A stretch of 64,000 nt of DNA from the human T2T-CHM13v2.0 reference genome, Homo sapiens (GCF_009914755.1 NC_060937.1), one strand, 5' to 3'. Positions 1,544-63,617 are shown, counted from the first letter of the stretch. Program-made: numbers and translations. Notes: generated by a model from the sequence alone, not told the origin.

Positions 1544-1592
1544 GAGACCCTTAAGAGAGTTCTAAACATAGAAATGAAAGAATGATACCTGC

Positions 1593-4279
1593 TGATATGG
1601 TTTGGCTTTGTGTCCCCACCCAAATATCATCTTGAATTGTAATCCCCACATATCAAGGGAGAGACCTGGTGGGACGTGATCATAAGGGTTATTTCTCCCA
1701 TGCTGTTTCTGTGATAGTGAGCAAGTTCTCACAAGATCTGATGGTTTTATAAGAAGCTCTTCCCTCTTCACTCCCCCCTCTCTCGTCTGCTGCCATGTAA
1801 GTGTGTCTCTTCCCCTTCTAGCATTATTGTAAGTTTCCTGAGGTCTCCCCAGCCATGTGGAACTGTGAGTCAATTAAACCTCTTTTCTTTATAAATTACT
1901 AAGTCTTGGGTAGTATCTTTATAGCAGTGTGAGAATGGACAATATAGTTAATTGCTACTGGTAGAGTAGGTTACTGGTATAAAGATACCTGAAAATGTGG
2001 ATGTGACTTTGAAACTGAGAAATAGGCAGAGTTTGGAACAGTTTGGAGGGCTCAGAAGAAGACAAGAAGATGTGGGAAAGTTTGGAACTTCCTAGAGACT
2101 TGCTGAATGGTTTTGACTAAAATGCTGATAATGATGTGGACAATGATGTTCAGGCTGAAGTGGTCTCAGATGGAGATCAGAAACTTCTTGGGAACTGGAG
2201 CAAAGGTCATTCTTGCTATGCTTTAGCAAAGAGACTGGTGACATTTTGCCCCTGCCCTAGAGATCTGCGGAAATTTGAACTTGAGAGAGATGATTTAAGG
2301 TATCTGGTGGAAGAAATTTCTAAGCAGCAAAGCATTCAAGATGTGACCTGGATTATTCTGAAATCATTCAGTTTTATGCATTCACCAAGAGATGGTTTGA
2401 AATTGGAACTTATGTTTAAAAGAGAAGCAGAGCATGAAAGTTTGAAAAATTTTCAGCCTGATGATGTAATAGAAAAGAAAAAACCCATTTTCTGGGGAAA
2501 ATTCAAGCCAGCTGCAGAAATTTGCATAAGTAATGAGGAGCCAAACGTTAATCACCAAGACAATGCGAAAATGTCTCCAGGGCATGTCAGAGACCTTCAT
2601 CGCGGCCCCTCCCATCACAGGCCTAGAGGCCTAGGAGAAAAAAATGGTTTCATAGGCTGGGTCCAGGGCCCTTCTGCTGTGTGCAGCCTTGGAGCTTGGT
2701 GCCAGCCACCCAGGCATGGCTAAAAGGGGCCAAGGTACAACTCAGGCCATTGCTTCAGAAGGTGCAAGCCCCAAGCCTTGGCAGCTTCCATGTGGTGTTG
2801 GTCCTGTGGGTGCACAGAAAGACAAGAATTAAGGTTTGGGAAACTCTGCCTAGATTTCAGAGGATGTACGGAAGTGCCTGGATGTCCAGGCAAAGGAGTG
2901 CTGCAGGGGTGGAGCCCTAATGGAGAACTTCTGCTACTGCAGTGTGGAAGGGAAATTTGGGGTTGAAGCCCCCACACTAACTTGCTTTTGAGGACTAACT
3001 TGCTTTTGAGTCCTCACTGGGTGGAGCACTATCTAGTGGAGCTGTGAGAAGAGGGCCACCATCCTCCAGATCGCAGAATGGTAGATCCACTGACAGCTTG
3101 CCTTACATGCCTGGAAAAGCTGCAGATGCTCCATGCCAGCCATGAAAGTGGCTAGGATGGGGGGCTGTATCCTACAAAGCTACAGGGGCAGAGCTTCTGA
3201 AGACCATGGGAGCCCACCTCTTGCATCAGCATGATCCAGACGTGAGATATGGAGTTAAAGGAGATAATTTTGGAGCTTTAAGATTTAATGACTTCCCTGT
3301 TTGATTTCAGACTTGCGTGGGGCCTGTAGCCCCTTTGTTTTGGTCAATTTCTCCCATTTGGAATGGGAGCATTTATCCAATGACCGTACCCCCATTGTAT
3401 AATAAAGGAACTAACATGCTTGGGATTTTACAGGCTTCCTTTATCCATCCTTTGGAACAGATTGCTTCACAGTCAAATTCCACAAGATGCATGAAGAAGA
3501 GCTGGTATGAATTCTACCAAAACTTTCCAAAAAATTGAGAAGGAGGGGCTTCTCCTTAACTCATTCAATAAAGCCAGCATCACCCTGATACCAAAACCTG
3601 GCAAAGACGCAATGACAAAAGGAAACTATAGGCCAATATCCCTGATGAACACAGACACAAAAATTCTCAACAAAATATTAGCAAACTGAATCCAGCAGCA
3701 CGTTAAAAAATAAATTCACCATGATCAAGTAGGCTTCATTTCTGGGATGCAGGTTTGGTTAAACATATGCAGAAGGAACTTCCTTGTTTCAGATGAGACT
3801 TTGGACTTGGACTTTTGAATTAATGTTGGAATGCATTAAGACTTTGGGGACTGCTGGGAAGGCATGATTGGTTTTGAAATGTGAGGACATGAGATTTGAG
3901 AGGGGCCAGAGGTGAAATGATATGGTTAGCTTTGTGTCCCCACCCAAATCTCATCTTGAATTGTAATCCTCACATGTCAAGGGAGAGACCTAATGGGAGG
4001 TGATTGAATAATGGGGGTGGTTTCCTTCATGCTGTTCTCATGATAGTGAGTGAGTTCTCACAAGATCTGATGGTTTTACAGGGGGCTCTTCCCCCTTCAC
4101 TCACCCCTCTCTCTCTCCTGCTGCCATATAAGATGTGCATCTTCCCCTTCTGTCATGATTGTAAGTTTCCTGAGGCCACCCCAGCCATACAGAACTGTGA
4201 GTCAATTAAACCTCTTTTCTATATAAATTACCCAGTCTTGGGTAGTATCTTTATAGCAGTGTGAGAATGGACTAATACA
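1593..4279 (+). mobile_element. THE1 (THE1D-like) MaLR provirus: 5' LTR 1593-1946, internal region, 3' LTR 3918-4279
   Basis: Both LTRs run tgatatgg...gagaatggac(t)aata(c/t)a. The internal ORF 2136-2723 is typical MaLR internal sequence. 5-bp TSD cctgc/cttgc. Confidence 0.95.
3449..3771 (+). repeat. L1 ORF2 fragment inside the THE1 internal region; local copy of 5731-6051
   Basis: Collinear with 5731-6051 and shares apparently non-consensus words (cagtcaaattccacaagat, cattcaataaagcc, catttctggg). Confidence 0.8.
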
Positions 4280-7200
4280 CTTGCTTCTACAAAACACACC
4301 TGAGTACATAGCCCACGGACCCTATAAAATAACCACATAGTAGAAACTACAAAAGCAACCAGCTAACAACTTCATGATAGGTTCAATATCTCATATATCA
4401 ATATGAACCTTGAATGTAAATGGTCTAAACACCCCACTTAAAAGGAACAGAGTGGCAAGTTGGATAAGAAAAACAAGAACTATCTTTCTGCTGTTTTCAA
4501 GAGACCCACCTCATATGCAACTACACCCATAGGCTCAGCAATAAGGGCTGAGGAAAGATCTATCATGCAGACAGAAAACAAAAAGAGATAAAGATAAAAT
4601 AGACTTTAAACCAGTAATAGTAAAAAAGAATAGAGAACAGCATTACATAGTGATAAAGAGTTCAATTCAACAAGAAGACTTAACTATCCTAAATATATAT
4701 GCATCCAATATTAAAGCACACAGTTTCCAAAAACAAATACTTCTGACCCACAAAAAGACTTGAACAGCCACACAATAATATTCAGGGGCTGCAACACCCC
4801 ACTGACAGCATTAGACAGATCATTCAGGCATAAAAGTAACAAAGAAATTTGGGACTTAAACTTGACATGTGACCAACTGGACATAATAGACATCTACAGA
4901 ATTCTCCACCCATCAACCACAGAATATAAATTCTTCTCATCTGCACATGGAACGTGCTCCAAGATTGACTATAAAAATGTCTGAATAATTTTTTAAAAAA
5001 TCTAAATTATACCAAGCACACCCTTGGACCACAGTGGAATAAAAATAGAAATATATATTCAGATCTTTCAAAATCACACAATTACATGGAAATTAAACAA
5101 CCTGCTCCTGAATGACTTTTGAATAAACAAGAAAATTAGGGCAGAAATCAAAAAATTATTTCAAATAAACAAAAACAGTGACACAACATACCAAAACCTC
5201 TGGGATGCAGCAAAAGCAGTGTTAAGAGGAAGGTTTACAGTGATAAGTGCTTACCTTAAAAAGTTAGAAAGATCTCAGAGCAATAATCTAACATCACACC
5301 TAGAGGAACTAGGGAAACAAGAGCAAGCCAACTCCAAAGCTAGTAGAAGAAAAGAAGTAACAAAAATCAGAGCAGAACAGAATGAAACCAAGACCCAAAA
5401 ATCCATATAAAGAGTCAATGAAAACAAAAGTTAGATTTTAAAAGGATAAACAAAATTGATAGACCACTAGATAGATTAACAAAGAGAGACAATCCAAATA
5501 AGCACAAACAAGAAAGGTGACATCGCAACCAATCACACAGAAATACAAATGATCCACAGTGACTATTATGAGTACCTCCATGCACAAAAACTAGAAAATC
5601 TAGAGGAAATAGATAAGTTCTTGGAAACATATAACCTCCCAATATTGAATCAGGAAGAAACTGAAACACTGAACACACCAATGTTGAGTTCTGAAATTGA
5701 ATCAGTAAAAAAATCTTACCAACCAAAAAACCCCTGGAACAGATGGATTCACAGTCAAATTCCACAAGATGTATAAAGAAGAGCTGGTACCAATTCTACT
5801 GAAACGTTCCAAACAATCGAGAAGGATGGACTTTTCTCTAACTCATTCAATAAAGCCAGCATCACCCTGATAGCAAAACCTGGCAAAGACACAATGAAAA
5901 AGGAAACTACAGGCCAACACCCCTGATGAACATAGACACAAAAATTCTCAGCAAAATATTAGCAAACTGAATCCAGCAGCACATAAAAAAAGAATTTGCC
6001 ATGATTAAGTAGGCTTCATTTCTGGGATGCAAAATTGGTTAAACATACACAAGTCAATAAATGTGATTCATCACACAAACAGAACTAAAAGCCAAAACCA
6101 CATCATCATCTCAATAGATGCAGAAAAGGCTTCTGGTAGAATCCAACATCCCTTCAAGATAAAAACCATTAACAAACTGAGAATTGATGGAACATACCCA
6201 AAATAATCAGCCATCTATAATAAACCCGCAGCCAACATTATACTGAATGGACAAAAGCTGGAAGTGTTCCCCCTGAGAGCTGGAAAAAGACAAGCATGGC
6301 CACTCTCACCACTCCCATTCAATACAGCCCTGGAAGTTCTAGCCAGAGCAACCAGGCAAAAGAAAGACTAAAAATAATTCAAATAGGAAAAAAGTCATCA
6401 AACTATCTGTCTTTACTGATGATATGACTCTATACCTACAGCACCTTGAAGACTCTGCTGAAAGTTTCTTGGAACTGTAAACAACTTCAGTAAAGATTCA
6501 GAATACAAAATCAGTGTACAAAAATCAGTAGCATTTCTGTACATGAATAACACTCAAGCTAAGAGCCAAATCAAGAATGGAATCCTATTTACAATAGCCA
6601 TACACAAAAATAAAATACCTAAAGATACATCTAACTGAGGAGGTGAAAGATTTTTGCAAGGGGAACTATAAAACACTGCAGAAAGAAATCATAAATGACA
6701 CAAACAAATCACAAAACCTTCCATGCTCATGGATTGGAAGAACCAATATTGTTAAAATGACCATCCTGCCCAAAGCAATCTACATATTCAACACTATTCC
6801 TATTGAACTACCAATGTCATTTTTCATAGATGAGAAAAAACTGTTTTAAAATTCATGTGGAATCAAAAAGAAGCCTGAATAGCCAAAGCAATACTGAGCA
6901 AAAGACAAAGCTGAAAACATTACATTACCCACATCAAACTATAAGACTACCATAACCAAAATAGCACAGTATTGGTACAAAAACAGACACATAGACCAAT
7001 GGAACAGAATAGAGAATCTGGAAATAAAGCCACAAACCTACAACCATCTGATCTTGACAGGGCTGACAAAAGCAAGCAATGGGGAAAGGACTACCTGTTT
7101 GATAAGTGGTGCTGGGATAACTGGCTAGCCATAGGCAGAAGAATGAAACTAGACCCCTACCTTTCATCAGGTACAAAAATTAATTCAAGATGGATTGAAG

Positions 7201-7526
7201 ATTTAAATGTAAGACCTCAAACAATAAGAATCCTAGAAGAAAACTTAAGAAACACCATTCTGGACATTGGCTTTGGAAAAGAATTTATGGCAACATCCTC
7301 AAAAACAATTGCAACGAAAACAAAAATTGACAAGTGGGATCTATTTAAACTAGAGAGCTTCTACAAGACAAAAGAAATTATCAACAGAGTAAACAGGCAA
7401 CCTACAGAATGAGAGAAAATATTTGTAAACTATGCACCGACAGAGGTCTAATATCCAGAACCAACAAGGAACTTAAACAATTCAAGAATCAAAAAACAAA
7501 TAATCTCTTTAAATAATGGACAAAAG

Positions 7527-9510
7527 GGTTGCTCTTCTCGAGGAATATGTTTGTGGTTTCTCCATATTTCCTGAATTTGAATGTTGGCCTGTCTTGCTAG
7601 TTTGGAGAAGTTCTCCTGGATAATAGCCTGAAGAGTGTTTTTCAACTTGGTTCCACTCTCCCCGTCACTTTCAGGTACACCAGTCAAACATAGGTTTGGT
7701 CTTTCCACACAGTCCCATATTTCTTGGAGGCTTTGTTCATTCCTTTTCATTCTTTTTTCTCTAATCTTGTCTTCACGCTTTATTTCAATATGTTGATCTT
7801 CAATCTCTGATATCCTTTCTTCTGCTTGATCGATTCGGCTATTGATACTTGTGTATGCTTCACGAAGTTCTCGTGCTGTGTTTTTCAGTTCCGTCAGGTC
7901 ATTTATGTTCTTCTCTAAACTGGTTATTCTAGTTAGCAATTCCTCTAACCTTTTTTCAAGGTTCTTAGCTTCCTTGCATTGGATTAGAACATGCTCCTTT
8001 AGCTCGGAGAAGTTTGTTATTACCCACCTTCTGAAGCCTACTTCTGTCAATTCGTCAAACTAATTCTCCATCCAGTTTTGTTCCCTTGCTGGCGAGGAAT
8101 TGTGATCCTTTGGAGGATAAGAGGTGTTCTGGGTTTAGGAATTTTCAGCCTTTTGCACTGGTTTTTCCCCATCTTCATGGATTTATCTACTTTTGGTCTT
8201 TGAGGTTGGTGACCTTCAGATGGAGTTTTTGTGTGGATGTCCTTTTTGTTAATGTTGATGGTATTCCTTTCTGTTTGTTAGTTTTCCTTCTAACAGTCAA
8301 ATCTGTCTGCTGCAGGTCTGCTGGAGTTTGCTGGAGGTCCATTCCAGACCCTTTGTGACTGGGTATCACAGGCAAAGGCTGCAGAACAGCAAAGATTTTT
8401 GCCTATTCCTTCCTCTGGAAGCTTGGTCCCAGAGAGGCACCCACCAGATGCCAGCCAGAGCTCTCCTGTATGGGGTGTCTGTTGACCCCTGCTGGGAGGT
8501 GTCTCCCAGTCAGGAGGCACGGGGGTCAGGGACCCACTTGAGGAGGCAGTCTGTCTCTTAGCAGAGCTCAAACGCTGTGCTGGGAGATCTGCTTTTCTCT
8601 TCAGAGCCGGCAGGCAGGAACATGTCAGTCTGCTGAAGCTGCGCCTACAGCCGCCCCTTCCCCCAGGTACTCTGTCCCAGGGAAATGGGAGTTTTATCTA
8701 TAAGCCCCTGACTGGGCCTGCTGGCTTTCTTTCAGATGCACCTTGCCCATAGAGGAGGAATCTAGAGAGGCAGTCTGGCTACAGTGGCTTTGTGGCACTG
8801 CAGTGGGCTCTGCCCAGTCTGAACTTCCAGGTGGTTTTATTTACACTGTGAGGGGAAAACCGCCTACTCAAGCCTCAGTAATGTCGGACGCCCCTCCCCC
8901 CACCAAGCTCCAGCATCCCAGGTTGACTTCAGATTGCTGTGCTAGCAGTGAGAATTTCAAGCCAGTGGATCTTAGCTTGCTGGGCTCTGTGGGGGTGGGA
9001 TCCACGGAGCTAGACCACTTGGCTCCCTGACATCAGCCCCCTATCCAGGGGAGTCAAGGGTTCTGTCTTGCTGGCATTCCAGGCACCACTGGGGGTATGA
9101 AAAAAAACTGCAGCTCGCTTGGTGTCTGCCCAAACATGACCGCCCAGTTTTGAGCTTGAAACCCAGGGCCCTGCTAGTGTAGGTGCCTGAGGGAATCTCC
9201 TGGTCTGCGGGTTGCGAAGACCATGCGAAAAGCATAGTATCTGGGCCAGAGTGCACTGTTCCTCATGGCACAGTACCTTATGGCTTCCCTTCGAACTCCC
9301 TCTCTGACCGCCTGTGCTTCCTGGGTGAGGTGATGCCCCACCCTGGTCCTGCTCGCCCTCCGTGGGGTGCACCCACTGTCTAACCTGTCCCAATGAGATG
9401 AGCCCGGTACCTCAGTTGGAAATGCAGCAATCACCTGCCTTCCATGTTAATCTCACTTTGAGCTGTAGACTGGAGCTGTTCCTATTTGGCCATCTTGTCA
9501 GCCACTGCCC
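7527..9510 (-). mobile_element. L1PA7-like 5' UTR plus N-terminal ORF1, inverted and 3'-truncated
   Basis: ORF 7448-8050(-) is the ORF1p coiled coil (TEVGFRRWVITNFSELKEHV...). The L1 5' terminus with caagatggcc lies at about 9488-9510. Confidence 0.92.
9488..9497 (-). promoter_or_regulatory. YY1 motif at the 5' end of the L1 internal promoter
   Basis: caagatggcc on the minus strand at the canonical position near the L1 5' end. Activity unknown. Confidence 0.6.
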
Positions 9511-9805
9511 ATTACAGTATTTTTAATTCCAAAGGTGTAAACAATGTAAATAGCCCAAAATAGAGTTGTGATAAATATAACTACTCTGTGGCATCGTTAA
9601 AAATCATGTAAGGACATGGGTCAGTGCTCACAATATACTAAGAGGGAAACTGTAAGGTTAAAAACAATATATAAATTATGATCCCACTTACTTTTAAGCA
9701 CTTATACATTAATTTATTTAAAAAAAATTCCAAAATGTTAAATATGTTATAATTTCTGGATGATTCCAGTCCAAGTAATTTTTATCTGCTTTATATTATT
9801 CTGCA

Positions 9806-10102
9806 TTTTTTTTTTTCTTGAGACAGAGTACCACTCTTTTTGCCCAGGCTAGAGTGCAGTGGTAGGATCTCAGCTCACTACACCCTCCACCTCCTGGATT
9901 CAAGGGATTCTCCTGCCTCGGCCTCCTGAGTAGCTGGGATTATAGGCACTGGCCACTACACCCAGCTAATTTTTGTGTTTTTAGTAGAGATGGGGTTTTG
10001 CCATGTTGGTCAGGCTGGTCTCGAACTCCTGAACTCAAGTGATCGGCCTGCCTCAGCCTCCCAAACTGCAGGGATTACAGGCGTGAGCCACTGTGCCTGG
10101 CC
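9806..10102 (-). mobile_element. AluS
   Basis: Full dimer with poly(T) at left; TSD-like tatt(a/t)ttctg(c/t)atttt. Confidence 0.95.
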
Positions 10103-11539
10103 TATTTTTCTGTATTTTACAAAATGTTTACAATCACTATATATTACTTTTAGAATTAGGAAAAAGAGGATCCTTTTTTTTTAATTTTCAAGTTCAAACA
10201 GCCAAACACCACTAAAGAGCTAGTTGTGTTCTGTAACGCTGCAACAGGCTAATGGGTTACAGTGGTCAAGTCAGCCTTCTGTGGGGCTAGGTTTTCCTGT
10301 TCATCATGAAGAGAAGTGAAATGTCTCTGCCTCCCTCATAGCTAACGTAAGAGAGCTTCTACTGAGGCTCCTAGTCTTCCAAGTCATTTGGCTTCTCTAA
10401 CTCCCCTGGATAAGGGACAATTTTCCCCTCCCAAAGCCTTTGCTCTCCATCTTCTTCCTGGACCAGGCAGACAGAAAGAAAACACACATGCCTGCTGCCC
10501 ATTCACCTCTGAGGTCTTCTTAATGCGGGAGGGCACCACCACCCAGCCACCTTCACTGCAAGGTAACAGACCAACGTGTTCCAGGCAAGAACCCAAGGTC
10601 TAGAGAGATTACGTGGTCAAAGTTCTCCTGCTTCTCCAATGCTGCACACTCGCGCTTTCGTTTGCTTAAGGAAACCAGGGAACATTTGAGTGAGAAAATG
10701 GCATACTGAGAATTTTCTACAATAGTGAATTCAGGTTTCCTACCTACATTCTTTCCAAGGTAGTTAGTGGCTAAGTCAATGTTCCAGAACTTGAATTCTA
10801 ACACACTAGATGTATTCACCCTTGTCAGCAAATTCTCACTGGGTACTATTGTGCCCTGCACTGGGCAAAGTCGTACGTATAAAGAAGTGACTGCGGTTTT
10901 CCTGCCCTTAGGAATTAGAATAAAGGGAAAGTCACATAACACTATGGAAGCATGAGCTTATTGTTGGTAGAATAATATATCTTTGGAATTTCCAGCTTTT
11001 TATTTTAAGTCTTCCTGTGCTATAAGTAAAAAAGAATGGCCAGAATAACCTTAGTTTTATTGTACAAAATTAACATTTAAAAACATTTGTGTATTCTCCC
11101 CCCAAATCTCAGTGTTTCAAGAGACTGGAATTTAATTAATGTAGCTATTTAGAGATACAAATCAGCCATTACTGTTCTTTTTTTATAAGGATATTGAGTT
11201 TAATTATATCATTGTCTTCACTAGCCTCTAATGCTAGGTAGAGAACATAAGATTGATCCATTTTCCCCAAAGCTTTTGTGTAGTAAGTTTTTATGTAAGT
11301 GGAAAACTTAATGCTAACAGAAACAAATTCAACCACACTTTTAAAATTACAGGATAATTGCTAATTCTGTGGTCATTCATTCCCAGGCCATACTCCAACA
11401 CAGGAAACTATGAGAAATGTAACCACTGGTAAAATTAAACCTGCAATTATAGCACCAATTTCTAGGATATGTTGATTTTTCTCTATTTTGCAACATGTGC
11501 ACAAATATATAAAATTTTCTGATTTATTTATCATGTTGA

Positions 11540-11884
<345 letters not shown>

Positions 11885-12859
11885 TAAGACAGGTTTTTAT
11901 TCTGCTTATAGTCTTCTTTATTAGTTAAATTTTTAAATTGTCATCGAATGTCAAGGGCAATAATATACTCGGTGAATTAGCATAAGCTACCTTTGAAAAT
12001 ATGAATCAGAAAAAAAAGAAACAAGCATGTAGCAAACCCATGCTTTATCCTAATCCACCATCCTTTTGGATAATGATTATCTTTGTCACCTAGCAGTTGG
12101 ATCAGTCTCTCTATTTGCAATAAAGTCTCAATGCACCCCATATCTTTACTAATATCCACCATCGGCTTCCAGAACTTTTTCTAGGTACCCTCTATTTCTC
12201 TCATCCACTACCCTCAGCTTTTCCTAGTTCTTGGAACTGTGCATCCAATGCTTCACTGTACCCTAACCTAGAATTATTCACACAACTCCCACATTTTCCT
12301 CATTGGTTGAAGCTTTCTCTAACCAGAATCCTTCTTCTAATAATAATTAGATGCATAATTAGTTTTTGATCTTTTTCCTTTCCCATGGCCTTAGTAAACT
12401 GTTAGTTTGTTATATTTCATCCAATTCTACATTGTGTTGTATGCCTCTCTGGATCAGTGTTTTTGGCCCTAGAGCATCAGTTCGATTAGAAGGGGCCCTG
12501 GCTAATTCCAACGACACAACAGCACATCTGGTATGACACAGCCCCACCCACATATTGGGAGTGGGGACGATGGCAATTCTAGAAATAGTAAATATTGAGC
12601 ATTCAGTGTTTTGCATGTACTATCTGGATTCAAACCCAGACAGTCTGAATGTAGAGCCAGCACTTTTCACACTGCACTATGCTGTTGTGATGAAGAGGAA
12701 AGAAAGTAAGATGCAGAAGAGGAGGAGGCAACAGAAGAGGAGGAGGAGGCAGGAGGTGGAATTCCAGTGGTTAAATCTCTGGATCCAGAGAAGTACTGTA
12801 ATAGATTCCTCACTGTGGCACTTCCTACTATATGACTGCATATATGGCCCAAGGGCCAC

Positions 12860-13240
12860 ATGTATTGAACAAATACAAACTCTCATGTACCAGGTTGTGT
12901 GCTATGTGCTACACACTGCCTATTGAGCAAATACCCTGCTCTTCCACGGCTGGCAGCTTAGTAATCCAGAAAGATAAGGGGGCATAGAAAAACATGGAGA
13001 CAGTGCGGTCTTCTCAGAGGAAGTAATGTCTGATGGGTGGCAGGATGGATTAGTATTAATCAGATGGGTTAAGGATGGGCTAGTGTGCATCAGAAAGGGG
13101 TAGAGAAGGGCATTCCAAACAAAGGAACTAGCCTGTGCAAAGGCCCCCACCTCATATGAAAGTGAGGTTTATTAAGGCAGTGCAAAGAAAGCACTGAACA
13201 TAGTTCCTGGCACATGGTAATAGTTGATAATGTTTACAAT
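12860..13240. mobile_element. Degenerate L2/MIR fragments
   Basis: L2-like gaagggcattccaaacaaaggaactagcctgtgcaaaggccc and MIR-like 3' end cctggcacatggtaa. Confidence 0.55.
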
Positions 13241-13321
13241 GATGACAATAATAACGATGATTGTGGTGGTGACCAACTTTGTGATAGAGGAACATATCCT
13301 TCTTAAATTATTGCCATTATG

Positions 13322-13640
13322 GTTTTTGATTTCTTTTGTTTTATTTTGTTTTTTAGTGACAAGGTCTTGCACTGTTGCCCAGGCTCGAGTACAATGAAGT
13401 AATCAAAGCTCACTGCAGCCTCGACCTCCTGGGCTCAAGCGATTCTCCCACGTAGGCCTCCCAGGCAGCTAGTATTATAGGCCTCAGCCACAATGCCTGG
13501 CTAATAATTTTTTTAAAAAAATTTGGTAGAGATGGAGTCTTGCTTTGTTGTCCAGGTTGGTCTCAAACACCTAGGCTCAAGTGATGCTTCTGCTTTGGCC
13601 TCTCAAAGTTCTGAGATTACAGGCATGAGACACCATGCCC
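13322..13640 (-). mobile_element. AluJ
   Basis: Diverged Alu dimer with J-type ctcctgggctcaagcgat. Confidence 0.9.
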
Positions 13641-14585
13641 ATAATCACCACAGCTGATTAACTGAGATTTATTTTTCCCAGCTCCCATCTCACCCTTTAA
13701 TGAGGGCATTTTTTAAGGTACATTTCCCTAAGGATAGGCAAGAAAGGGAAAAAGAAGGAGAACTTGAAGCCCAAATCATGGACCTGTGACTAATCTTTCT
13801 CTTATTTGTAAATTCGTTTAAGTGCAGTGTTATAGGGCTAGTTGGTTTAATCTTTACAAATGGAAAAAAATGTGGAGATAATGTGTGGTGATCATTATCA
13901 TAGAGGTGATCAGTTTCTCCAGAGAAAAACCTAACTAGAACAATTAGATGAGACATTTACCTAATGATTCGAGTTTCTCAGTAGTAGCAGAACAAAAAAA
14001 AAAATTTTTTTTCCAAAGTAAACAACATCTTCCAGACCACACCTTTTTCAGACCACTTCTAAGAGATGAATGTTAATGGCAGTAGGGATTTTCGAACTGT
14101 CTTGCAGAACGTGTGGAAATCATGGTCCATGTAGTTTCCTTGTTCATCTTCGTATTTACCAGGCAATTCAAATACATAGATACTTCCTACAAAAACTTCT
14201 GAAATGCTATGGTAACGTATGCCATGAAATACAATTTGCATGGATGATTAAGTTCCTATTTACAGCCTTCACCTCTTTTTACAGCTGCTGTACAAATAAC
14301 AAAGTTCAAAGAATGGAAAATCTAACAGTTATAAACATTGAGTTCCCACACCCAAAAGATTTTCATAAAAGCCAAATAGAAACATACAGAAAGGTGCGGT
14401 TGCTCACTCTCATTTTCTTTTAAGTTGAGTGATTATTTCCTATTAGACTTCACCTGGTTTGTTTATTTAATGATTCTTTCCAGTAGGCTGTTATTACCTG
14501 AAGGAGCATAAAATAGAAACTACAAGCATGAGTTAGAGAAAACTGCAATCTTCCTACGAGAGCATGGGAAATAATTAATACTCTA

Positions 14586-14730
14586 GGAACATTTTTCCAC
14601 CCAAATCCTGAAATTATGCTCAGAACTGTGGTTCATACGCGTAGGTGCACTGTTCCCCTTTAGGAGAGGAGCCATAGCTTTTTTGGGGGTCTTCAATAAA
14701 GTCCATAGCTTCAAAGAATTGTTAAAACAC
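14586..14730 (+). mobile_element. Probable hAT-Charlie MITE fragment (copy 1 of a local pair)
   Basis: ggagaggagccatagctt...aattgttaaaac resembles a Charlie-type end; similar to 15917-16060. Confidence 0.45.
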
Positions 14731-15916
14731 ATTTTTCAACAGTGTTTTCCTTTTGCTATACTTTCACTCAGTAACATTTCCACACCTGGAAAGATACTTT
14801 AAAAAGCAAACACCTTTGTTTAAGTGCTCATAAATTAAGCCTGAGCAACATAATGTACAATAAGTATAAAAATAATATGGACGTTAAACAGTGTGGCAAA
14901 GTGGTCACCAGTCCAATCATCAGAAAATATCGAGAGGGATCCCAGATGAATTGGAATATATGACCCTATTTATTTATTTCAGTGGCTGTTTTAAAAGTTT
15001 GAAAACCTCAGGGTGTGAGTAGATTATTGTGTGATGTCCTTCGGACAAAATTCTTTTAAGTTGACCTGCAGGACAGGAATTTAAGTGCTGTAGGAAAATC
15101 ACCACATTTGCTGATGGCATCTTTTTTGCAATTGTCATGCTCTGTGAATTTTTGGAGTCATAGTTTCATTTCCCCGCACTTGGTCCTTCTATGCCTTGCT
15201 CATTTTTTCCAATGATCCTCATCCTTCAATGGTTATAATCCTAAATATCCTCAAAGGTGGGATGCTACAGATGATAACTGAGTTCATGTTTACCTATAAC
15301 CAATAATTTATACTGGAAGTTAAACTAGCAGTTCTGGAACAACATGAAATGCTGGGGCGTGGGATGAGCAGTTTGGATGAAGTGATACTATTCACTCTTC
15401 AGCAGGGACATAATAAATACCTGAATTCTTTTCCTATAAAAGTAAAAGATTCCACTGAGCTTGCATTACTTATGTGATGTCCTTTTTTAAGATACCTTTT
15501 CCGGCACATTATCATTAATGATGTATGTTTATAAAATAATTTTTAAAAGGTTGGTTTTTAAAAGAAGAAGGAAGTGGAGCAGGAGAAATAGAAGCAGCAG
15601 CAGTAGTTGAGGTGAATCAGAGACAGAGGAGGAAGAGGAGAAGTAGATTGGGAAGAGAAGTGAATGTCCAGAGAATTGCTGGTGCAATATAGCCTTTAAA
15701 GAATAAGCCAGGCCAATAAACACTAGTGTCTTGGAACTAAATTTCTGTCTTTCTGTCTGTTGAGAGGAGAAGACCAAAAATGAAGAAAGAGGCAGGAAGA
15801 CCCAGCCCTTTCTGTCAAACTCCAGATGGAGTCATCCTGGTTAAGGGTTCTGAGGAAGCATGGACAGTGCCCCCATAGTTCCAGGCACTATTTGTCTGAA
15901 GCAGAGGTTCTGGGAG

Positions 15917-16060
15917 GAACATTCCCCATCCAAATCCTAAAATTATATTCGAAATGATGCATTCATATGCAGAGATGCATTTTTTCTCCTAAGGGGAGGA
16001 GACATAGCTTTCTTTAGATACTCAACACAGTCTATAACCTCAAAAAACATGATAAAACAG
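15917..16060 (+). mobile_element. Probable hAT-Charlie MITE fragment (copy 2)
   Basis: Collinear with 14586-14730. Confidence 0.45.
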
Positions 16061-16596
16061 GTTGTTCAAGGTTAGGGATTCCCAGAACCTCTCTTTCCAG
16101 AAGCATCCAAGTTGTCCTGCATCTATCTCCTAAGCCTTCTTCCCTAGGGGGAATAACTAACCCCTAAGCGTATTGGAACAACTTTTTCCTGAGGATAAAA
16201 CCTAAGTAGCTTGAACCATTGAGTAACTTCAGCCTCCTTAAGCTTATGTGCTAAATTGGTTAACGGCCCAGATTTCAGATGATCTGCCACGGCTATTTGT
16301 GGGCAGTATTTTGCAGTTTTTCATCATTCTTTCCCATTTTCTATGTCATTTGTTACACACCTTTAGAGTTAAGTAGGACTCCCTCCCTTTAGTTCCCATT
16401 TATGGAACAAGAAATTGAGAGTAAAGCGACTTGCCCAAGTTCCCAAGTAGCAGCCTGCCAGGCTGAGAATCTAGGCAGGGACTCCAGGGAGGGTAAGGCA
16501 TGTCTGTCTGCAAGGAAGTTAGTCTAAATACAGTTGTGTTGTTATTGTTTTCCTCCAGTGGCAAAATTTACATGTGTATATACATATATATATATA

Positions 16597-16722
16597 TTTT
16601 AATTTATTTATTTTTTTAAATTATACTTTAAGTTCTAGGGTACATGTGCACAATGTGCAGGTTTGTTACATATGTATACATGTGCCATGTTGGTGTGCTG
16701 CACCCATTAACTCGTCATTTAC
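16597..16722 (-). mobile_element. L1PA 3'-end stub (~125 bp)
   Basis: ttatactttaagttctagggtacatgtgcac...cccattaactcgtcatttac. Confidence 0.92.
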
Positions 16723-17069
16723 CTAATTGAAATGTTTTAATTCCCCTAACCCAACCCTACACACATTCTTCCACCACATCTTGGCCTTTCTCAGAGAGAA
16801 ACTGAATCAAAATCACGCAAAGAGAGTCTGTGCTTTTCTCAGACAACAAAGAAATAGGCAGAGCATATCATGCTGCCAGCAAACTCCAGACACTTCAGAA
16901 AAACAAACAAACAAACAATGTTCCTCATTATGTTTGAAGATATATTTTGTTTGGAAGTACAGAGCCAGAAACTACCTCATAGGGAAAAGCATCTCCCTTT
17001 TGTAAACATGTATTGTGCACATTAATGTTTTAAGAAATATTTTTGTTTACTAGAATCTTCAATAGATAG

Positions 17070-17470
17070 TGTTATTGGCTCTAACATTTTCCTCCTCTCT
17101 GTATCTGCATTGTTCTCCACAATGCACTCGCAATGTGGGAAAGATGTACTTCTGAGATTCTTGGCTTTGGGTTTGGACATAGGACTTGCTTTTGCCAACA
17201 GAATTAGGCCAAAGTCATACTGTGCTCATTCTGGGCAAAACCACAGAAGCCTTGTGTTTCCTCTCCTCTCTTGTACTTCTGCTGTCACCTTGAGAAGACT
17301 ATGCCAGGCTAATCCATTGGTACCAGAAGGGAAGAACAGACATTTAGGACAAACCTGCATCAACCAAGTCACCCCCACTCATCGTAGGCTGCATTAGCCA
17401 ATGCCCCAAAAGACACCTCTCTGAAGATGGCATGAAGACCAAACTATCAGCTGTGTTTGTTACAAAGTGA
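17070..17470 (+). mobile_element. MLT1-type MaLR LTR, degenerate
   Basis: ggacttgcttttgccaacagaatta-type LTR motifs. Confidence 0.55.
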
Positions 17471-17531
17471 AGTTCTCTTCGCAATAAGCCATGTATTTTT
17501 TTGTCCAAATGCAGCAGATAAGGCAGTATTA

Positions 17532-19920
17532 CTTGATCACTGCTGTTGAGTTTTCATAAAGAATTTTTAGGACTCCTTGGTTCCCTTCCATGAGTTCTCT
17601 TTACGTAGGAAAGACCAGATGTACCTAAGGAGTTTGGCCCAGTTGCTAACTGGACTGTTCACAAGTATCTCATCTTCCACACCAACCCATTGTTCTTGTC
17701 TACATGAAAGTTTGTGGTTGGAAAGACAGAAGCATAAAGAGAATAAATTACTGAATTGATAAATAGCCTGTGATAAAAATTTAGATTCCATCACAATGTC
17801 TTGAAAATTCTAAGGGAAAATGATTTGTAACCTGAAATTCCATACCCAGCTAAACTATTATGCAAGTATATGGGTGGACACAGACCTTTTCTTTTTTTTT
17901 TTTAATTATACTTTAAGTTTTAGGGTACATGTGCACAACGTGCAGGTTAGTTACATATGTATACATGTGCCATGTTGGTGTGCTGTACCCATTAACTCAT
18001 CATCTGGACAAAGACATTTTCAGATACATAAGAACTACCTGAGAGAATCTCTGGGACACAGCTAAAGCAGTGTTTAGAGAGAAATTTATGGCACTAAATG
18101 CCCACAGGAGAAAGTAAGAAACATCTAAAATCAACACCTTAACACCACAATTAAAAGAAGTAGAGAAGCAAAACCAAACAAATTCAAAAGCTAACAGAAG
18201 ACAAGAAATAACTAAGATCAGAGCAGAACTGAAGGAGACAGAGACATGAAAAACCCTTCAAAACATCAATGAATCCAGGATCTAGTTTTTCAAAAAGATT
18301 AACAAAATAGATAGACTGCTAGCCAGATTAATAAAGAAGGAAAGAGAGAAGAATCAAATAGACACAATAAAAAATGAAAAAGGGGATATCACCACTGATC
18401 CCACACAAATACAAACTACCATCAGAGAATGCTATAAACACCTCTATGAAAATAAACTAGAAAATCTGAAGAAATGGATAAATTCCTGGACACATACACC
18501 CTCCCAAGACTAAACCAGGAAGAAGTCGAATCCCTGAATAGACCAGTAACAAGTTCTGAAATTGAGGCAGTAATTAATAGGCTACCAACCAAAGAAAGCC
18601 CAGGACCAGACAGATTCCCAGCCAACTTCTACCGGAGATACAAAGAGGAGCTGGTACCATTCCTTCTGAAACTATTCCAATCAATAGAAAAAAAGGGAAT
18701 CCTCCCTAACTCATTTTATGAGGCCAGCATCATCCTGATACCAAAACCTGGCAGAGACACAACATAAAAAGAAAATTTCAGGCCTATATCCCTGATGTAC
18801 ATCGAGGTGAAAATCCTCAGTAAAATACTGGCAAACTGAATCCAGCAGCACATCAAAAAGCTGATCCACCATGATCAAGTTGGCTTCATCCCTGGGATGC
18901 AAGGCTGGTTCAACATACGCAAATCAATAAACATAATCCATCACATAAACAGAACCAAAGACAAAAACCACATGATTATCTCAATAGATGCAGAAAAGAC
19001 CTATGTTAAAATTCAACACCCCTTCTTGCTAAAAACTCTCAATAAACTAGGTATTGATGGAACATATCTCAAAATAATAAGAGCTATTTATGACAAACCC
19101 ACAGCTAATATCATACTGAATGGGCAAAAGCTAGACACATTCCCTTTGAAAACCAGCACAAGACAAGGATACCCTCTTTCACCACTCCTGTTCAACATAG
19201 TATTGGAAGCTCTGGCCAAGGCAATCAGGCAAGAGAAAGAAATAAAGGGTATTCAAATAGGGAGAGAGGAAGTCAAGTTGTCTCTGTTTGCAGATGACAT
19301 GATTGTATATTTAGAAAACCCCATCATCTCAGCCCAAAATTCTCCTTAAGCTGATAAACAACTTCAGAAAAATTTCTGGATACCAAATCAATGTGCAAAA
19401 ATCACAAGCATTCCTAGACACCAATAACAGGCAAACAGAGAGCCAAATCATGAGTGAACTCCTATTCACGATTGCTACACAGAGAATAAAATACCTAGGA
19501 ATCCAACTTACAAGGGATGTGAAGGGCCTCTTCAAGGAGGACTACAAACCATTGCTCAACGAAATCAGAGAGGACACAAACAAATGGAAAAACATTCCAT
19601 GCTCATGGATAGGAAGAATCAATATCGTGAAAATGGCTGTACTACCCAGAGTAATTTATACATTCAATGCTATCCCCATCAAGCTACCACTGACTTTCTT
19701 CACAGAATTAGAAAAACTACTTTAAATTTCATATGGAACCAAAAAAGAGCCCGTATAGCCAAGACAATCCTAAGCAAATGAACAAAGCTGGAGGCATGAC
19801 ACTACCTGACTTCAAACTATACTATGAGGCTACAGTAACCAAAACAGCATGGTACTGGTACCAAAACAGATATATAGACCAATGGAACAGAACAGAGGCC
19901 TCAGAAATAGCACTACACAT
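17532..19920 (+). repeat. Left arm of an inverted segmental duplication (paralog of 61700-64000)
   Basis: Reverse-complement match including non-L1PA flank. Near-identical ORF translations (MMESKFLSQA.., MVPFHEFSL..), and the same L1 5' truncation point and TSD. Confidence 0.95.
17891..18004 (-). mobile_element. Younger L1PA 3'-end stub, present only in the left duplicate
   Basis: TSD tggacacagacctttt (17875-17890) / tggacaaagacatttt (18005-18020). The paralog has an empty site at about 63642-63660. Confidence 0.9.
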
Positions 19921-20579
19921 CAACAAGTCAGGAAAGAACAGATGCTGGAGAGGATGTGGAGAAATAGGAATGCTTTTACATTGTTGGTGGGAGTATAATT
20001 TAGTTCAACCATTGTGGAAGACAGTGTGGCAATTCCTCAAGGATCTAAAACCAGAAATACCATTTGTCCCAGCAATCCCATTACTGTGTATATACCCTAA
20101 GGATTATAAATCATTCTGCTATAAAGACACATGTGCACATATGTTTATTGCAACACTGTTCACAATAGCAAAGACTTGGAACCAACCCAAATGCCCATCA
20201 ATGATAGACTGGATAAAGAAAATGTGGCACATATACATCATGGAATACTATGCAGCCATAAAAAAGGATGAGTTTATGTCCTTTGCAGGGACATGGATGA
20301 AGCTGTAAGCCATCATTCTCTGCAAACTAACACAGGAAGAGAAAACCAAACACCACATGTTCTCACTCATAAGTGGGAGTTGAACAACAAGAACATGTGG
20401 ACACAGGGAGGGGAGCGTCACACACTGGAGCCTGTCGGGGAGTTGGGGGGGCTAGGTGAGGGAGAGCATTAGGAGAAATACCTAATGTAGATGACGGGTT
20501 GATGGTGCAGTAAACCACCATGGCATGTGTATACCTATGTAACATGCTGCACATGTATCCCAGAACTTAGCGTATAATA
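18045..20579 (+). mobile_element. 5'-truncated L1PA7-like element with an internal deletion at ~19920
   Basis: ORF2 RT fragments ([14 protein letters not shown]), 3' UTR and short poly(A). Preceded by aagaactacctgaga (18030-18044). Confidence 0.95.
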
Positions 20580-20595
20580 AAAAAATGGGCAAAAG

Positions 20596-21445
20596 ACGTA
20601 AACAGACACTTCTCAAAATAAGACATACGAGTGGTCAAGAAACATGTGAAAAGATGCTCAATGTCACTAATCATAAGAGAAATGCAAATAAAAACCACAG
20701 TGAGATACCATCTTACACCAGTCAGAATGACTACTATTAAAAAGTCAAAAAAACAACAGATGCTGGCAAAAATGTAGAGAAAAGGTAACACTTACACACT
20801 GTTGGTAGTAATGTTTTTAGCTCAGCCATGTAGAAAACAGTTTGAAGATTTCTCAAATAACTTAAAGCAGAACTATTATTTGACCCAGCAATGCCATTAC
20901 TGGGTATATATATATAAAAGAAAATAAATCATTCTACCAAAAAGACACACTCATATGTTATCAAAAAGATTCACTCATATGTTTATCACCACACTATTCA
21001 CAATAGACATGGAAGCAACCTAGGTGTCCATCAGTGGAGGCTTGGATAAAAAAAAATTGGTACATATGCATTATATAATACTATGCAGCCATAAAAAGAA
21101 TAAAATCATGTCCTCTGCAGCAACATGGATGCATCTGGAGGCCATTATTCAAAGATTAACGCAGGAACAGAAAACCAAATATCGCATGTTCTAATTTTTA
21201 AGTGGGAGCTAAACATTAGATACTCATGGGCATAAAGATGGCAATAATAGCCACTGCGGACTACTAGAGTGGAGAAGGAGGAAGAGGGGCATGGGTTGAA
21301 AAACTAACTATTGGGTACTATGCTCACTACCTGGGCGACAGGATCATCCATATGCCAAACCTCAGCGTTATGCAATATACTCATGTAACAAACCTACACA
21401 TGTACTCCCTGACTCTAAAATGAAATTTGAAATTATTTAAAAAAA
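20596..21445 (+). mobile_element. 3' end of the old L1PA15/16-like element begun at 909
   Basis: Resumes at the L1 position where 7526 stops. PA15/16-type 3' UTR (gaaaaactaactattgggtactatgctcactacctggg). Weak outer TSD aaactctgatgt (897-908) / aaccctctggtgt (21445-21457). Confidence 0.85.

Positions 21446-51049: not shown

Positions 51050-52375
<1,326 letters not shown>

Positions 52376-60069: not shown

Positions 60070-63617
<3,548 letters not shown>

What the first reader, a model, noticed from the sequence alone, without database searches (positions are those of the whole stretch)
7511..20595. 13-kb block with retrotransposition hallmarks (TSD plus poly(A)) that splits an older L1 and carries duplicated genomic DNA
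Seen: the old L1 stops at ttt|aaataatggacaaaag (7511-7526) and resumes at aaaaaatgggcaaaag (20580-20595). These match at 14/16 positions, sit at an L1-endonuclease-like TT|AAAA site, and the second follows an L1 poly(A). Between them lie an inverted L1PA 5' end, ~8 kb of ordinary genomic DNA and a paralog of 61700-64000. Inference, two models. (A) A twin-primed (5'-inverted) L1PA7 whose forward body was later replaced by ~10 kb of inverted duplicated DNA, with the right breakpoint inside L1. (B) Retro-duplication of a ~13-kb unspliced read-through RNA ending at the poly(A) of the L1 at 60070, i.e. a giant 5' transduction landing ~40 kb from its source. The two L1 3' ends share one variant (gaagagaaaacc) but differ at several others, so I cannot decide between the models.
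Basis: partly seen in the sequence, partly recalled or inferred. Interest (0 to 1): 0.8.

Follow-up and report, generated by a model that had tools for sequence, protein, structure and literature searches.

The report
L1-flanked 13-kb inverted duplication
About 30-40 million years ago a 13-kb stretch lying 40 kb downstream was copied, upside down, into an old L1 repeat at a break bearing the marks of the L1 insertion machinery, and the two copies have exchanged sequence since; it is an unusual old mutation with no sign of a function.

Summary
The old L1 is split at 7526/20580 with a 16-bp target-site duplication at a TTT|AAA site. The whole block 7527-20579, not only its right end, is a colinear inverted copy of 60070-73934, which runs 10 kb past the window. 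The distal locus is the original. It holds a 5'-truncated L1 (L1-S, minus strand) and a full-length L1 (L1-F, plus strand), head to head, each with its own target-site duplication, separated by 8.3 kb of non-L1 DNA. The block keeps both 5' duplications, ends at the L1-S poly(A) and stops inside L1-F ORF1. Divergence between the copies is a mosaic, about 8-9% baseline with patches of 0-2%. This fits an old duplication followed by gene conversion. The L1 pieces of the block are no closer to L1-S or L1-F than to unrelated genomic copies. I favour DNA-templated repair synthesis coupled to an L1 integration, with the neighbouring L1 pair as homology arms (0.5). The main reason is that a free RNA copy landing within about 60 kb of its source has a chance near 4e-5. 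RNA retro-duplication remains possible (0.2).

The parts
946..7526 (+). Left half of the old L1 that received the insertion. It is colinear with L1-F coordinates 1748-2296 and 2407-5622 at 69-72% identity, and contains other material between 1500 and 4357.
7511..7526 (+). Left copy of the target-site duplication, aaataatggacaaaag, preceded by TTT.
7527..9501 (-). Inverted L1 5' piece (5'UTR plus the first part of ORF1), L1-F coordinates 1983 to 1. It is paralogous to 73934-71950 outside the window. There are 2 nt of microhomology at the left junction.
9502..9516 (-). Copy of the 5' target-site duplication of L1-F (aaaaatactgtaatg; the distal site reads aaaaataatgcaatg).
9502..18044 (.). 8.5 kb of non-L1 DNA, an inverted copy of 63618-71949. 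Divergence is a mosaic of 0-2% and 8-15% patches. None of 6 tested frames had a Pfam hit.
9806..10100 (-). Alu present in both copies, so it predates the duplication.
11590..11885 (-). Alu present in both copies.
13335..13640 (-). Older Alu-like element present in both copies.
16564..16729 (-). Insertion found only in the block: a T-rich/TA-repeat stretch followed by a roughly 115-bp L1 3' end. It arose after the duplication.
17875..18004 (-). Insertion found only in the block: a 118-bp L1 3' end with a T run and its own roughly 16-bp target-site duplication. It arose after the duplication and breaks homology 40 bp from the L1 junction.
18030..18044 (+). Copy of the 5' target-site duplication of L1-S (aagaactacctgaga).
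18045..19917 (+). L1 ORF2 piece, L1-F coordinates 3275-5154, with the same 5' truncation point as L1-S. RVT_1 hit at 18840-19349.
19918..20579 (+). L1 3' piece, L1-F coordinates 5785-6447, ending in a short A run. At 19917/19918 631 bp of L1 are missing relative to L1-S, L1-F and other copies, with ATC microhomology at the junction.
20580..20595 (+). Right copy of the target-site duplication, aaaaaatgggcaaaag.
20580..21208 (+). Right half of the old L1 (L1-F coordinates 5630-6241, 71% identity).
60055..60069 (-). 3' target-site duplication of L1-S (aagaactacctgaga). It is absent from the block.
60070..63617 (-). L1-S, the source-side 5'-truncated L1 with tail A6CACACA6. It contains 60757-61697, which the block lacks (about 630 bp of L1 plus the Alu at 61198-61495).
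63618..64000 (.). 5' target-site duplication of L1-S (63618-63632) and the start of the source non-L1 DNA. This DNA continues to 71949, where full-length L1-F (71950-78402, plus strand, G000:C13:41735950-41742402) begins.

Best explanation
SHOWN. The block 7527-20579 is a derived, inverted copy of 60070-73934. It was inserted into an old L1 at a staggered break that has the L1-endonuclease signature: a 16-bp target-site duplication, a TTT|AAA site, and an L1 3' end with an A run on the right. The distal locus is the original. There L1-S and L1-F lie head to head, each with its own target-site duplication, and L1-F continues intact past the homology boundary.

INFERRED, the mechanism I commit to. 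An L1 RNA of the same subfamily was integrating at 7526 by target-primed reverse transcription, possibly with twin priming. This supplies the poly(A) end, the duplication and perhaps the inverted left end. The L1-homologous single-stranded 3' end or ends of that intermediate then invaded the young, nearly identical L1 pair 40 kb away on the same chromosome. Alternatively, the ends of a break in the freshly inserted L1 did so soon afterwards. Re-annealing by synthesis-dependent strand annealing or gap repair sealed the insertion. The 13-kb copy was therefore templated by DNA, with L1-F and L1-S acting as homology arms.

AFTERWARDS, shown. Two short L1 fragments inserted into the block. An Alu inserted into L1-S and/or 631 bp were lost from the block's L1. 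Patchy gene conversion homogenised much of the interior.

No function is indicated. The lasting consequence is a pair of 13-kb inverted repeats around a 39.5-kb spacer.
For: Target-site duplication and adjacency of the old L1 halves.

Full colinear homology with only 9 indels of 15 bp or more. The 2.5-kb sample of the non-L1 part that was searched (14000-16500) has only two full-length copies in the genome.

Direction of copying: L1-S has a perfect 15-bp duplication and L1-F a 14-15-bp one at the distal locus. The block carries only their 5' copies and lacks the L1-S 3' copy. L1-F is continuous across coordinate 1983, because the old L1 aligns colinearly over L1-F 1748-2296.

Single age for the whole block: in a two-component fit, the high-divergence component of the non-L1 part is 8.0% at non-CpG sites, against 9.4% for the L1 3' piece.

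Independence of the block's L1 pieces from L1-S and L1-F:
- Pairwise distances C-S, C-F and S-F are 10.3, 11.1 and 11.1% of 2561 columns.
- With 24 genomic copies as outgroups, shared derived states are C-S 13, C-F 15 and S-F 27; private states are 92, 97 and 99 of 2453 columns.
- No indel is shared by C and S alone.
- The ML tree groups S with F (SH-aLRT 95; 73 without the S=F tract) and leaves C outside.
- The 5' piece shares 4 exclusive states with L1-F, against 1-6 for the other 38 pairs that shared any, among 10 copies.

Proximity (inference): with uniform insertion, a free RNA copy lands within about 60 kb of its source with probability about 120 kb / 3.117 Gb, or 4e-5. Repair templates, by contrast, are expected to be nearby in cis.

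Precedent (passages read):
- 22 'templated insertions' that copy non-L1 genomic DNA into L1 insertions, explained as SDSA-like, among 3,598 insertions of which 81 were unclassified (bioRxiv 10.1101/2024.08.27.596794).
- 3 insertions with DNA templated from near the integration site (PMC11702581).
Against: No switch point from 'independent L1' to 'copied from L1-S/L1-F' could be detected inside either L1 piece. All the L1s are equally distant, so the third L1 RNA is postulated and not shown.

The C+S clade is not rejected (AU p 0.13-0.26). Part of the S-F excess is a local S-F gene-conversion tract: a 120 + 38-bp run of identity at 19095-19257 where about 50 bp is the longest expected.

Known templated insertions are smaller than 250 bp and lie next to the insertion site. 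This case would be about 50 times longer and 40 kb away.

For twin priming, the two L1 segments normally abut within 1-10 bp: 32 of 32 cases in PMC11702581. Here they are coordinates 1983 and 3275.

The 631-bp gap at 19917/19918 is not expected from in-register homologous annealing and needs a separate deletion or a microhomology jump.

The structure by itself is exactly what a single read-through RNA copy would give.
Confidence: 0.5

Rival explanations
1. Reader's model B, RNA retro-duplication. A minus-strand read-through transcript at least 13 kb long ran antisense through L1-F, through the 8.3 kb of non-L1 DNA, and sense through L1-S. It was cleaved and polyadenylated at the L1-S poly(A) signal. 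The L1 machinery reverse-transcribed it in trans at 7526, and the copy was 5'-truncated inside L1-F ORF1.
For: One event explains everything structural:
- a colinear copy;
- a right end exactly at the L1-S poly(A), without the L1-S 3' target-site duplication;
- a new 16-bp duplication at an endonuclease-type site;
- an arbitrary left end with 2-nt microhomology, as is usual for 5' truncation;
- one age for the L1 and non-L1 parts.

5' transductions from upstream promoters are documented (PMC12350158 passages).
Against: The source lies only 39.5 kb away, which has a chance near 4e-5 for a free RNA under a uniform-insertion assumption.

The block's L1 pieces show no excess of states or indels shared with L1-S or L1-F, and the tree prefers S+F. 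This is compatible with B only if L1-S, L1-F and the copy all arose within a few million years and S and F later exchanged sequence.

L1-S lacks ORF1 and the endonuclease domain, so mobilisation must be in trans.

The RNA would have to pass 13 AATAAA and 2 ATTAAA hexamers and three antisense Alus without splicing or early termination. No intron-like gap is present: the 941-bp gap does not look like a spliced-out intron on inspection of the alignment.

The left end at L1-F coordinate 1983 lies within ORF1, beyond the 5'UTR where I recall the L1 antisense promoter lies, so no known promoter accounts for the transcript.

There is no APOBEC- or ADAR-type asymmetry: G>A 156 against A>G 181, and C>T 156 against T>C 145.

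Thirteen kb would be at or beyond the longest L1-made copies that I know of (recalled).
Confidence: 0.2
2. No L1 RNA was involved. A staggered break in the old L1, made by L1 endonuclease or otherwise, was repaired by microhomology-mediated, replication-type template switching. The T-rich 3' end annealed to the A tract of L1-S in the nearby DNA. Synthesis then copied L1-S, the non-L1 DNA and 2 kb of L1-F, and returned with 2-nt microhomology.
For: Both junctions have microhomology: an A run on the right and AG/CT on the left. The nearby cis template is natural for such repair. The model needs no third L1 and no 13-kb RNA. The model would derive the block's L1 entirely from L1-S, which the data do not reject (AU p 0.13-0.26).
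Against: The distal segment has 17 runs of six or more A's, so ending at the terminal L1 tail is about a 1-in-17 coincidence unless that tail was then much longer.

A discrete 16-bp duplication at TTT|AAA is the specific L1 signature. Repair-mediated duplications catalogued in primates are at most 619 bp, lie within 5 km... within 5 kb of the donor, and none of 39 had poly(A/T) tracts (PMC2671141 passages).

The tree's preference for S+F counts against this model as it does against B.
Confidence: 0.1
3. The direction is reversed, with the block as the original and 60-74 kb as the copy; or the duplication is an assembly artefact.
For: None specific. It was considered because the two copies are equally diverged.
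Against: At the distal locus L1-F runs uninterrupted through the homology boundary, and both L1s have complete target-site duplications there. The block interrupts an otherwise contiguous old L1 and holds only one copy of each inner duplication. The copies differ by 993 substitutions and 9 indels of 15 bp or more, so this is not a collapsed or duplicated assembly.
Confidence: 0.02

Closest known systems
[quoted passage not shown]
   Same: Non-L1 genomic DNA from the same chromosomal neighbourhood is built into an L1 insertion that retains a target-site duplication, an endonuclease site and a poly(A) end.
   Different: Reported templates are smaller than 250 bp and lie immediately beside the insertion site. 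Here 8.5 kb of non-L1 DNA (up to 13 kb counting the L1 arms) was copied from 40 kb away, and both ends of the template are L1s.
Twin-primed (5'-inverted) L1 insertion (Ostertag and Kazazian model, recalled; features seen in PMC11702581 passages)
   Same: An inverted L1 5' segment abuts the 5' target-site duplication with 2-nt microhomology. A direct 3' segment ends in poly(A). The duplication is discrete, within the 12-18 bp range.
   Different: The two segments are not adjacent in L1 coordinates (1983 against 3275) and are separated by 8.5 kb of non-L1 DNA that is contiguous with both L1 ends at another locus.
L1 5' transduction / orphan transduction / retrocopy of a read-through transcript (PMC12350158 passages)
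   Same: A colinear copy of a source L1 with its upstream flank, ending at the source's poly(A) site and flanked by a new target-site duplication.
   Different: The 'source' L1 is truncated and not autonomous. The flank is about 10 kb, unspliced and includes an antisense L1. The copy lies 40 kb from the source. The copy's L1 is not measurably closer to the source L1 than to unrelated copies.
Inverted segmental duplication with interlocus gene conversion
   Same: A two-copy inverted repeat of 13 kb with a mosaic of near-identical and diverged tracts. Perfect runs reach 282 bp.
   Different: It is bounded by an L1-type target-site duplication rather than by the junctions typical of segmental duplications. 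Identity is about 87-93%, at or below the usual 90% threshold (threshold recalled).
[quoted passage not shown] 2009, PMC2671141, passages read)
   Same: An intrachromosomal copy of nearby DNA inserted at a break.
   Different: Those events are at most 619 bp, lie within 5 kb of the donor, and none of the 39 examined had poly(A/T) tracts.

Membership tests
L1 endonuclease / TPRT-type insertion | Target-site duplication of about 7-20 bp flanking the insert | tested here: met
   A 16-bp overlap of the two old-L1 halves in L1-F coordinates (5630-5645), 14 of 16 identical. It is 11-16 bp depending on how the A's are assigned.
L1 endonuclease / TPRT-type insertion | Cleavage at a TTTT/AA-like site (consensus recalled) | tested here: met
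   ctcTTT|AAAtaatgg at 7508-7513.
L1 endonuclease / TPRT-type insertion | Poly(A) tail at the 3' end of the insert | tested here: inconclusive
   Only a 7-A run at 20579-20585 (4 A's beyond the L1 AATAAA), shared with the duplication. L1-F is similarly short, so shrinkage with age is plausible.
Twin-primed 5'-inverted L1 | Inverted 5' segment next to the 5' duplication and direct 3' segment next to the poly(A) | tested here: met
   7527-9501 on the minus strand (coordinates 1983 to 1) and 18045-20579 on the plus strand.
Twin-primed 5'-inverted L1 | The two segments abut in L1 coordinates with only a short deletion or duplication | tested here: not met
   Coordinates 1983 and 3275, with 8.5 kb of non-L1 DNA between them. 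The reference set had 32 of 32 within 1-10 bp (PMC11702581).
5' transduction / read-through retrocopy | Colinear copy of the source plus its upstream flank, ending at the source poly(A) site and without the source's 3' duplication | tested here: met
5' transduction / read-through retrocopy | Full-length, coding-competent source L1 (mobilisation in cis) | tested here: not met
   L1-S starts at L1-F coordinate 3275 and so has no ORF1 or endonuclease domain.
5' transduction / read-through retrocopy | The copy's L1 derives from the source L1, seen as shared private changes | tested here: inconclusive
   C-S shared derived states 13, against C-F 15 and S-F 27. No shared indel. The C+S clade is not preferred but also not rejected.
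TPRT-associated templated insertion (SDSA-like) | Genomic DNA from the neighbourhood copied into an L1 insertion that keeps the TPRT hallmarks | tested here: met
TPRT-associated templated insertion (SDSA-like) | Short template (under 250 bp) immediately beside the insertion site | tested here: not met
   8.5-13 kb copied from 39.5 kb away (compared).
Segmental duplication | At least 1 kb at 90% identity or more (threshold recalled) | tested here: inconclusive
   90.5% over 9197 columns, 92.9% over 1175, and 87% over the L1 3' part.

The most novel reading that the evidence does not exclude
A single L1 integration seeded a 13-kb inverted segmental duplication in one step. The single-stranded cDNA end or ends of a (twin-primed) integration intermediate invaded a head-to-head pair of young L1s 40 kb away. 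DNA synthesis across the pair carried 8.5 kb of unique DNA into the insertion. This would make retrotransposition intermediates a source of kilobase-scale inverted repeats, which afterwards undergo gene conversion and could drive inversion. Here the spacer is 39.5 kb and lies about 58 kb upstream of TNFSF11.
Probability: 0.3. Interest if true: 0.65.

Novelty: new variant of a known kind. Interest (0 to 1): 0.45.

Why it matters
The case shows that the usual hallmarks of retrotransposition (target-site duplication, endonuclease site, L1 poly(A) end) can enclose 13 kb that is mostly not L1. It also shows that those hallmarks alone do not tell whether the template was RNA or DNA.

If the DNA-templated reading is right, L1 integration can create kilobase-scale inverted duplications from nearby DNA. 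That is about 50 times larger than the templated insertions seen so far in tumours and cell models, and it would link retrotransposition to the birth of inverted repeats. If the RNA reading is right, this would be among the longest L1-made copies and would hint at local reuse of nascent RNA.

The two 13-kb inverted copies still share perfect runs of 237-282 bp. They flank 39.5 kb that holds the last exon of LINC02341 and a RefSeq enhancer upstream of TNFSF11, so an inversion polymorphism there is worth a look in long-read population data.

Tried and rejected
1. My early idea was a 3' transduction from a full-length L1 beyond the window, combined with twin priming. I rejected it because L1-F is on the plus strand with the non-L1 DNA at its 5' side.

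2. Inversion by recombination between inverted L1s. Rejected by reasoning: it would separate the poly(A) end from the right-hand target-site duplication.

3. The distal locus as the copy. Rejected.

4. Editing signature of an RNA/cDNA intermediate. The substitution matrix is symmetric. All three Alus have the same orientation, so no double-stranded RNA is expected.

5. Splicing. No indel with intron-like ends. The only large gap (941 bp) shows ATC microhomology and no sign of being a spliced-out intron, on inspection of the alignment.

6. Phylogeny of the L1 pieces:
- Of the 29 genomic L1 loci, I used 24. I dropped L010, L012, L018, L019 and L022 because they did not give one alignment of at least 3200 bp.
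- The result is star-like and does not decide between the models.
- For the 5' piece I used 8 of the 39 other copies listed, again with no signal.
- The outgroups were picked by similarity to the block, which could bias polarisation.

7. Two-component fit of divergence, to ask whether the non-L1 part is younger than the L1 parts. It is not clearly so: 8.0% against 9.4%.

8. Pfam on 6 frames of the non-L1 part: no hits.

10. Literature:
- No paper describing this locus's duplication was found under 'LINC02341': 14 papers hit, 10 listed by title and abstract start.
- One paper mentions a structural variant mapped to the gene. Its single held supplement had no match, and other supplements were not visible.
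- A search on unspliced read-through retrocopies gave nothing comparable among the 12 listed of 45.

Full report
OBSERVATION

I used the full-length L1 found just outside the window (L1-F) as a ruler. The left half of the old L1 ends at L1-F coordinate about 5645 (window 7526) and the right half resumes at 5630 (window 20580). The two halves are therefore adjacent parts of one element and overlap by 16 bp, a genuine target-site duplication with 14 of 16 positions identical. The site reads TTT|AAA. The A run at the right end is short, 7 A including the duplication's own A's.

The AT skew marks 7.5-8.5 kb as minus-strand L1 and 18.0-21.5 kb as plus-strand L1, with nothing L1-like between them. 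Pfam finds the L1 ORF1 trimerisation and RBD-like domains on the minus strand at 7448-8059 and RVT_1 at 18840-19349. It finds nothing in 6 frames of the middle part.

EXTENT OF THE DUPLICATION

Inside the window, the block's right end matches 60087-64000 in inverted orientation, and that match is cut off by the window end. The window's genome could be searched. Positions 14000-16500 have exactly one other full-length match, 0.9-3.4 kb beyond the window on the minus strand at 93% identity, plus a 101-bp repeat hit on another chromosome.

After fetching the next 30 kb, the whole block aligns colinearly with 73934-60081 in window-extended coordinates:
- 7525-16567 at 90.5%;
- 16730-17891 at 92.9%;
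- 18011-19909 at 87.2%;
- 19918-20585 at 87.0%.

Only 9 indels of 15 bp or more separate the copies. Two are later insertions of short L1 3' fragments into the block (16564-16729 and 17875-18004). One is a 941-bp stretch present only distally (60757-61697), made of about 630 bp of L1 plus the Alu at 61198-61495. Three Alus are shared by both copies and so predate the event.

WHICH COPY IS THE ORIGINAL

At the distal locus, L1-S (60070-63617, minus strand) starts at L1-F coordinate 3275 and is flanked by a perfect 15-bp duplication, aagaactacctgaga. L1-F (71950-78402, plus strand, 6453 bp) starts at the canonical L1 5' end and is flanked by aaaaa(t)aatgcaatg. The two L1s lie head to head, 8.3 kb apart.

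The block contains the 5' duplication copy of each (18030-18044 and 9502-9516). It ends exactly at the L1-S 3' end without the L1-S 3' duplication copy. It begins at L1-F coordinate 1983, inside ORF1, whereas L1-F itself continues uninterrupted. The block is therefore derived and the distal locus ancestral.

AGE AND LATER HISTORY

Divergence between the copies is strongly heterogeneous. Windows of 150 aligned columns have between 0 and 28 mismatches.

At non-CpG sites:
- the L1 3' piece differs by 9.3% (229 of 2458);
- the L1 5' piece by 12.1% (229 of 1890; it is rich in decayed CpG);
- the middle part by 5.1% (408 of 8004).

The middle part, taken as 71 windows of 100 non-CpG, non-Alu sites, is over-dispersed (mean 4.6, variance 14.3). 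It fits two components, 2.1% (57% of windows) and 8.0% (43%). The L1 3' piece is homogeneous at 9.4%. Perfect runs reach 282, 238 and 237 bp.

The simplest reading is one duplication about as old as the L1s. That is roughly 4-5% per lineage, or about 30-40 million years using primate rates and L1 ages that I recall rather than computed. Repeated gene conversion in the interior followed. The sharp rise in divergence at 18 kb coincides with the 130-bp insertion found only in the block, which interrupts homology there.

KINSHIP OF THE L1 PIECES

If the block's L1 (C) were a copy of L1-S (S) made some time after S inserted, C and S should share private changes. They do not.

- Pairwise distances C-S, C-F and S-F are 10.3, 11.1 and 11.1% of 2561 columns.
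- I used 24 unrelated genomic copies as outgroups, out of 29 fetched. Five were dropped because their alignments were broken.
- All three local copies share 60 states that mark one subfamily. Only 2 of the 24 outgroups share most of them, at 52 and 48 of 60.
- Private states are 92 (C), 97 (S) and 99 (F) of 2453 columns. Shared derived states are C-S 13, C-F 15 and S-F 27.
- No indel is shared by C and S alone.
- Part of the S-F excess is a local S-F conversion tract: a 120 + 38-bp run of identity at 19095-19257, where the longest run expected is about 50 bp.
- The ML tree puts S with F (SH-aLRT 95; 73 without that tract) and leaves C unresolved beside two unrelated copies. A C+S clade costs 9-14 log-likelihood units but is not rejected (AU p 0.13-0.26).
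- For the 5' piece, C and F share 4 exclusive states, while the other 38 pairs that shared any, among 10 copies, share 1-6. The C-F identity of 86.5% is the lowest of C's nine pairings (8 of the 39 other copies listed were used).

All the L1s are therefore equidistant. This fits independent insertions of one subfamily. It also fits a copy made within a few million years of the insertion of S and F.

MECHANISM

In it, a twin-primed or ordinary L1 integrates at 7526, and its L1-homologous 3' ends use the head-to-head pair L1-F/L1-S as homology arms, so that synthesis between the arms copies the 8.3 kb.

What separates the models is mainly location. A free RNA copy has a chance of about 120 kb / 3.117 Gb, or 4e-5, of landing this close to its source. 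This is an inference that assumes uniform insertion. Repair synthesis, in contrast, prefers nearby templates on the same chromosome.

Supporting this reading, the block's L1 shows no affinity for S, and if anything S and F group without it. DNA-templated additions to L1 insertions are documented:
- 22 'templated insertions' among 3,598 tumour insertions (81 unclassified), under 250 bp, explained as SDSA-like (bioRxiv 10.1101/2024.08.27.596794, passages);
- 3 insertions with sequence templated from near the integration site (PMC11702581, passages).

Against this reading, no switch point is visible, the scale is about 50 times larger than any precedent, and the 631-bp gap at 19917/19918 needs an extra step.

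The RNA model is structurally the most economical, but it carries several burdens:
- the 4e-5 coincidence;
- mobilisation in trans of an RNA of at least 13 kb;
- passage of 15 poly(A) hexamers and three antisense Alus without processing;
- a start upstream of L1-F coordinate 1983, within ORF1 and so, as I recall its position in the 5'UTR, beyond the L1 antisense promoter.

It left no editing signature and no splice-like gap.

A third possibility is template switching with no L1 RNA at all, priming on the A tract of L1-S in the DNA. It fits the microhomologies. It makes the exact end at the L1 tail about a 1-in-17 coincidence, and it does not fit the catalogue of repair-mediated duplications, which are at most 619 bp, within 5 kb, and without poly(A) in any of 39 cases (PMC2671141, passages).

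My estimates are:
- DNA-templated copying coupled to an L1 integration, in one step or soon after: 0.5;
- RNA retro-duplication: 0.2;
- template switching without L1 RNA: 0.1;
- reversed direction or assembly artefact: 0.02;
- the rest unassigned.

VERDICT

The feature is real, larger than described, and rests on a well-supported core. It is a 13-kb inverted copy of a locus 40 kb away, inserted at an L1-type break about 30-40 million years ago, and since reshaped by nested insertions, one deletion or Alu gain, and gene conversion. Whether the template was DNA or RNA remains open and could be settled with other primate genomes. No function is indicated. The lasting product is a pair of 13-kb inverted repeats around 39.5 kb that contain the last exon of LINC02341 and a RefSeq enhancer.

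Noticed in passing
window 16564-16729 and 17875-18004: Two short minus-strand L1 3'-end fragments inserted into the block after the duplication. They are 93% identical to each other over 116 bp, and their 5' truncation points fall within 4 bp of each other when mapped on the L1 at 57.2-58.1 kb, to which they are 94-96% identical. I did not resolve whether this is coincidence, a truncation hotspot, or local copying.
   Followed up: partly
window 19095-19257 against 62.4-62.5 kb (L1-S) and about 76.3 kb (L1-F, outside the window): L1-S and L1-F are identical over 120 + 38 bp where about 50 bp is the longest run expected, and they share 4-5 derived states there. This is a likely gene-conversion tract between the head-to-head L1s. 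Conversely, the block's L1 and L1-F alone share 3 transversions within 22 bp at 18785-18806.
   Followed up: partly
window 20580-60069: This 39.5-kb spacer is flanked by the two 13-kb inverted copies, which share perfect runs of up to 282 bp. It contains the last exon of LINC02341 (41461-41948) and the RefSeq enhancer at 52011-52110. It is a candidate for inversion polymorphism, which I did not test. One paper mentions a structural variant mapped to LINC02341, but its held supplement had no details.
   Followed up: partly
window 57203-58099: Another plus-strand L1 3' end, 87% identical to L1-S, lies tail to tail with L1-S about 2 kb away.
   Followed up: no
window 1500-4357: The old L1 is not colinear here. 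L1-F coordinates jump from 2296 to 2407 across 2.8 kb that includes a separate L1-like piece (3466-3771, matching coordinates 3845-4151) and a stretch NCBI masks as repeat (3833-4285). This suggests further nested insertions.
   Followed up: no
window 16536 against 64832-64850: A (GTT)n microsatellite is 19 bp longer in the distal copy.
   Followed up: no
window 17820-18044 and 63618-63700: By eye, the DNA just upstream of the L1-S insertion site resembles the 3' end of ORF1 of a much older L1. L1-S would then have inserted into an ancient L1 fragment in the same orientation. This rests on recall, not on a library search.
   Followed up: no
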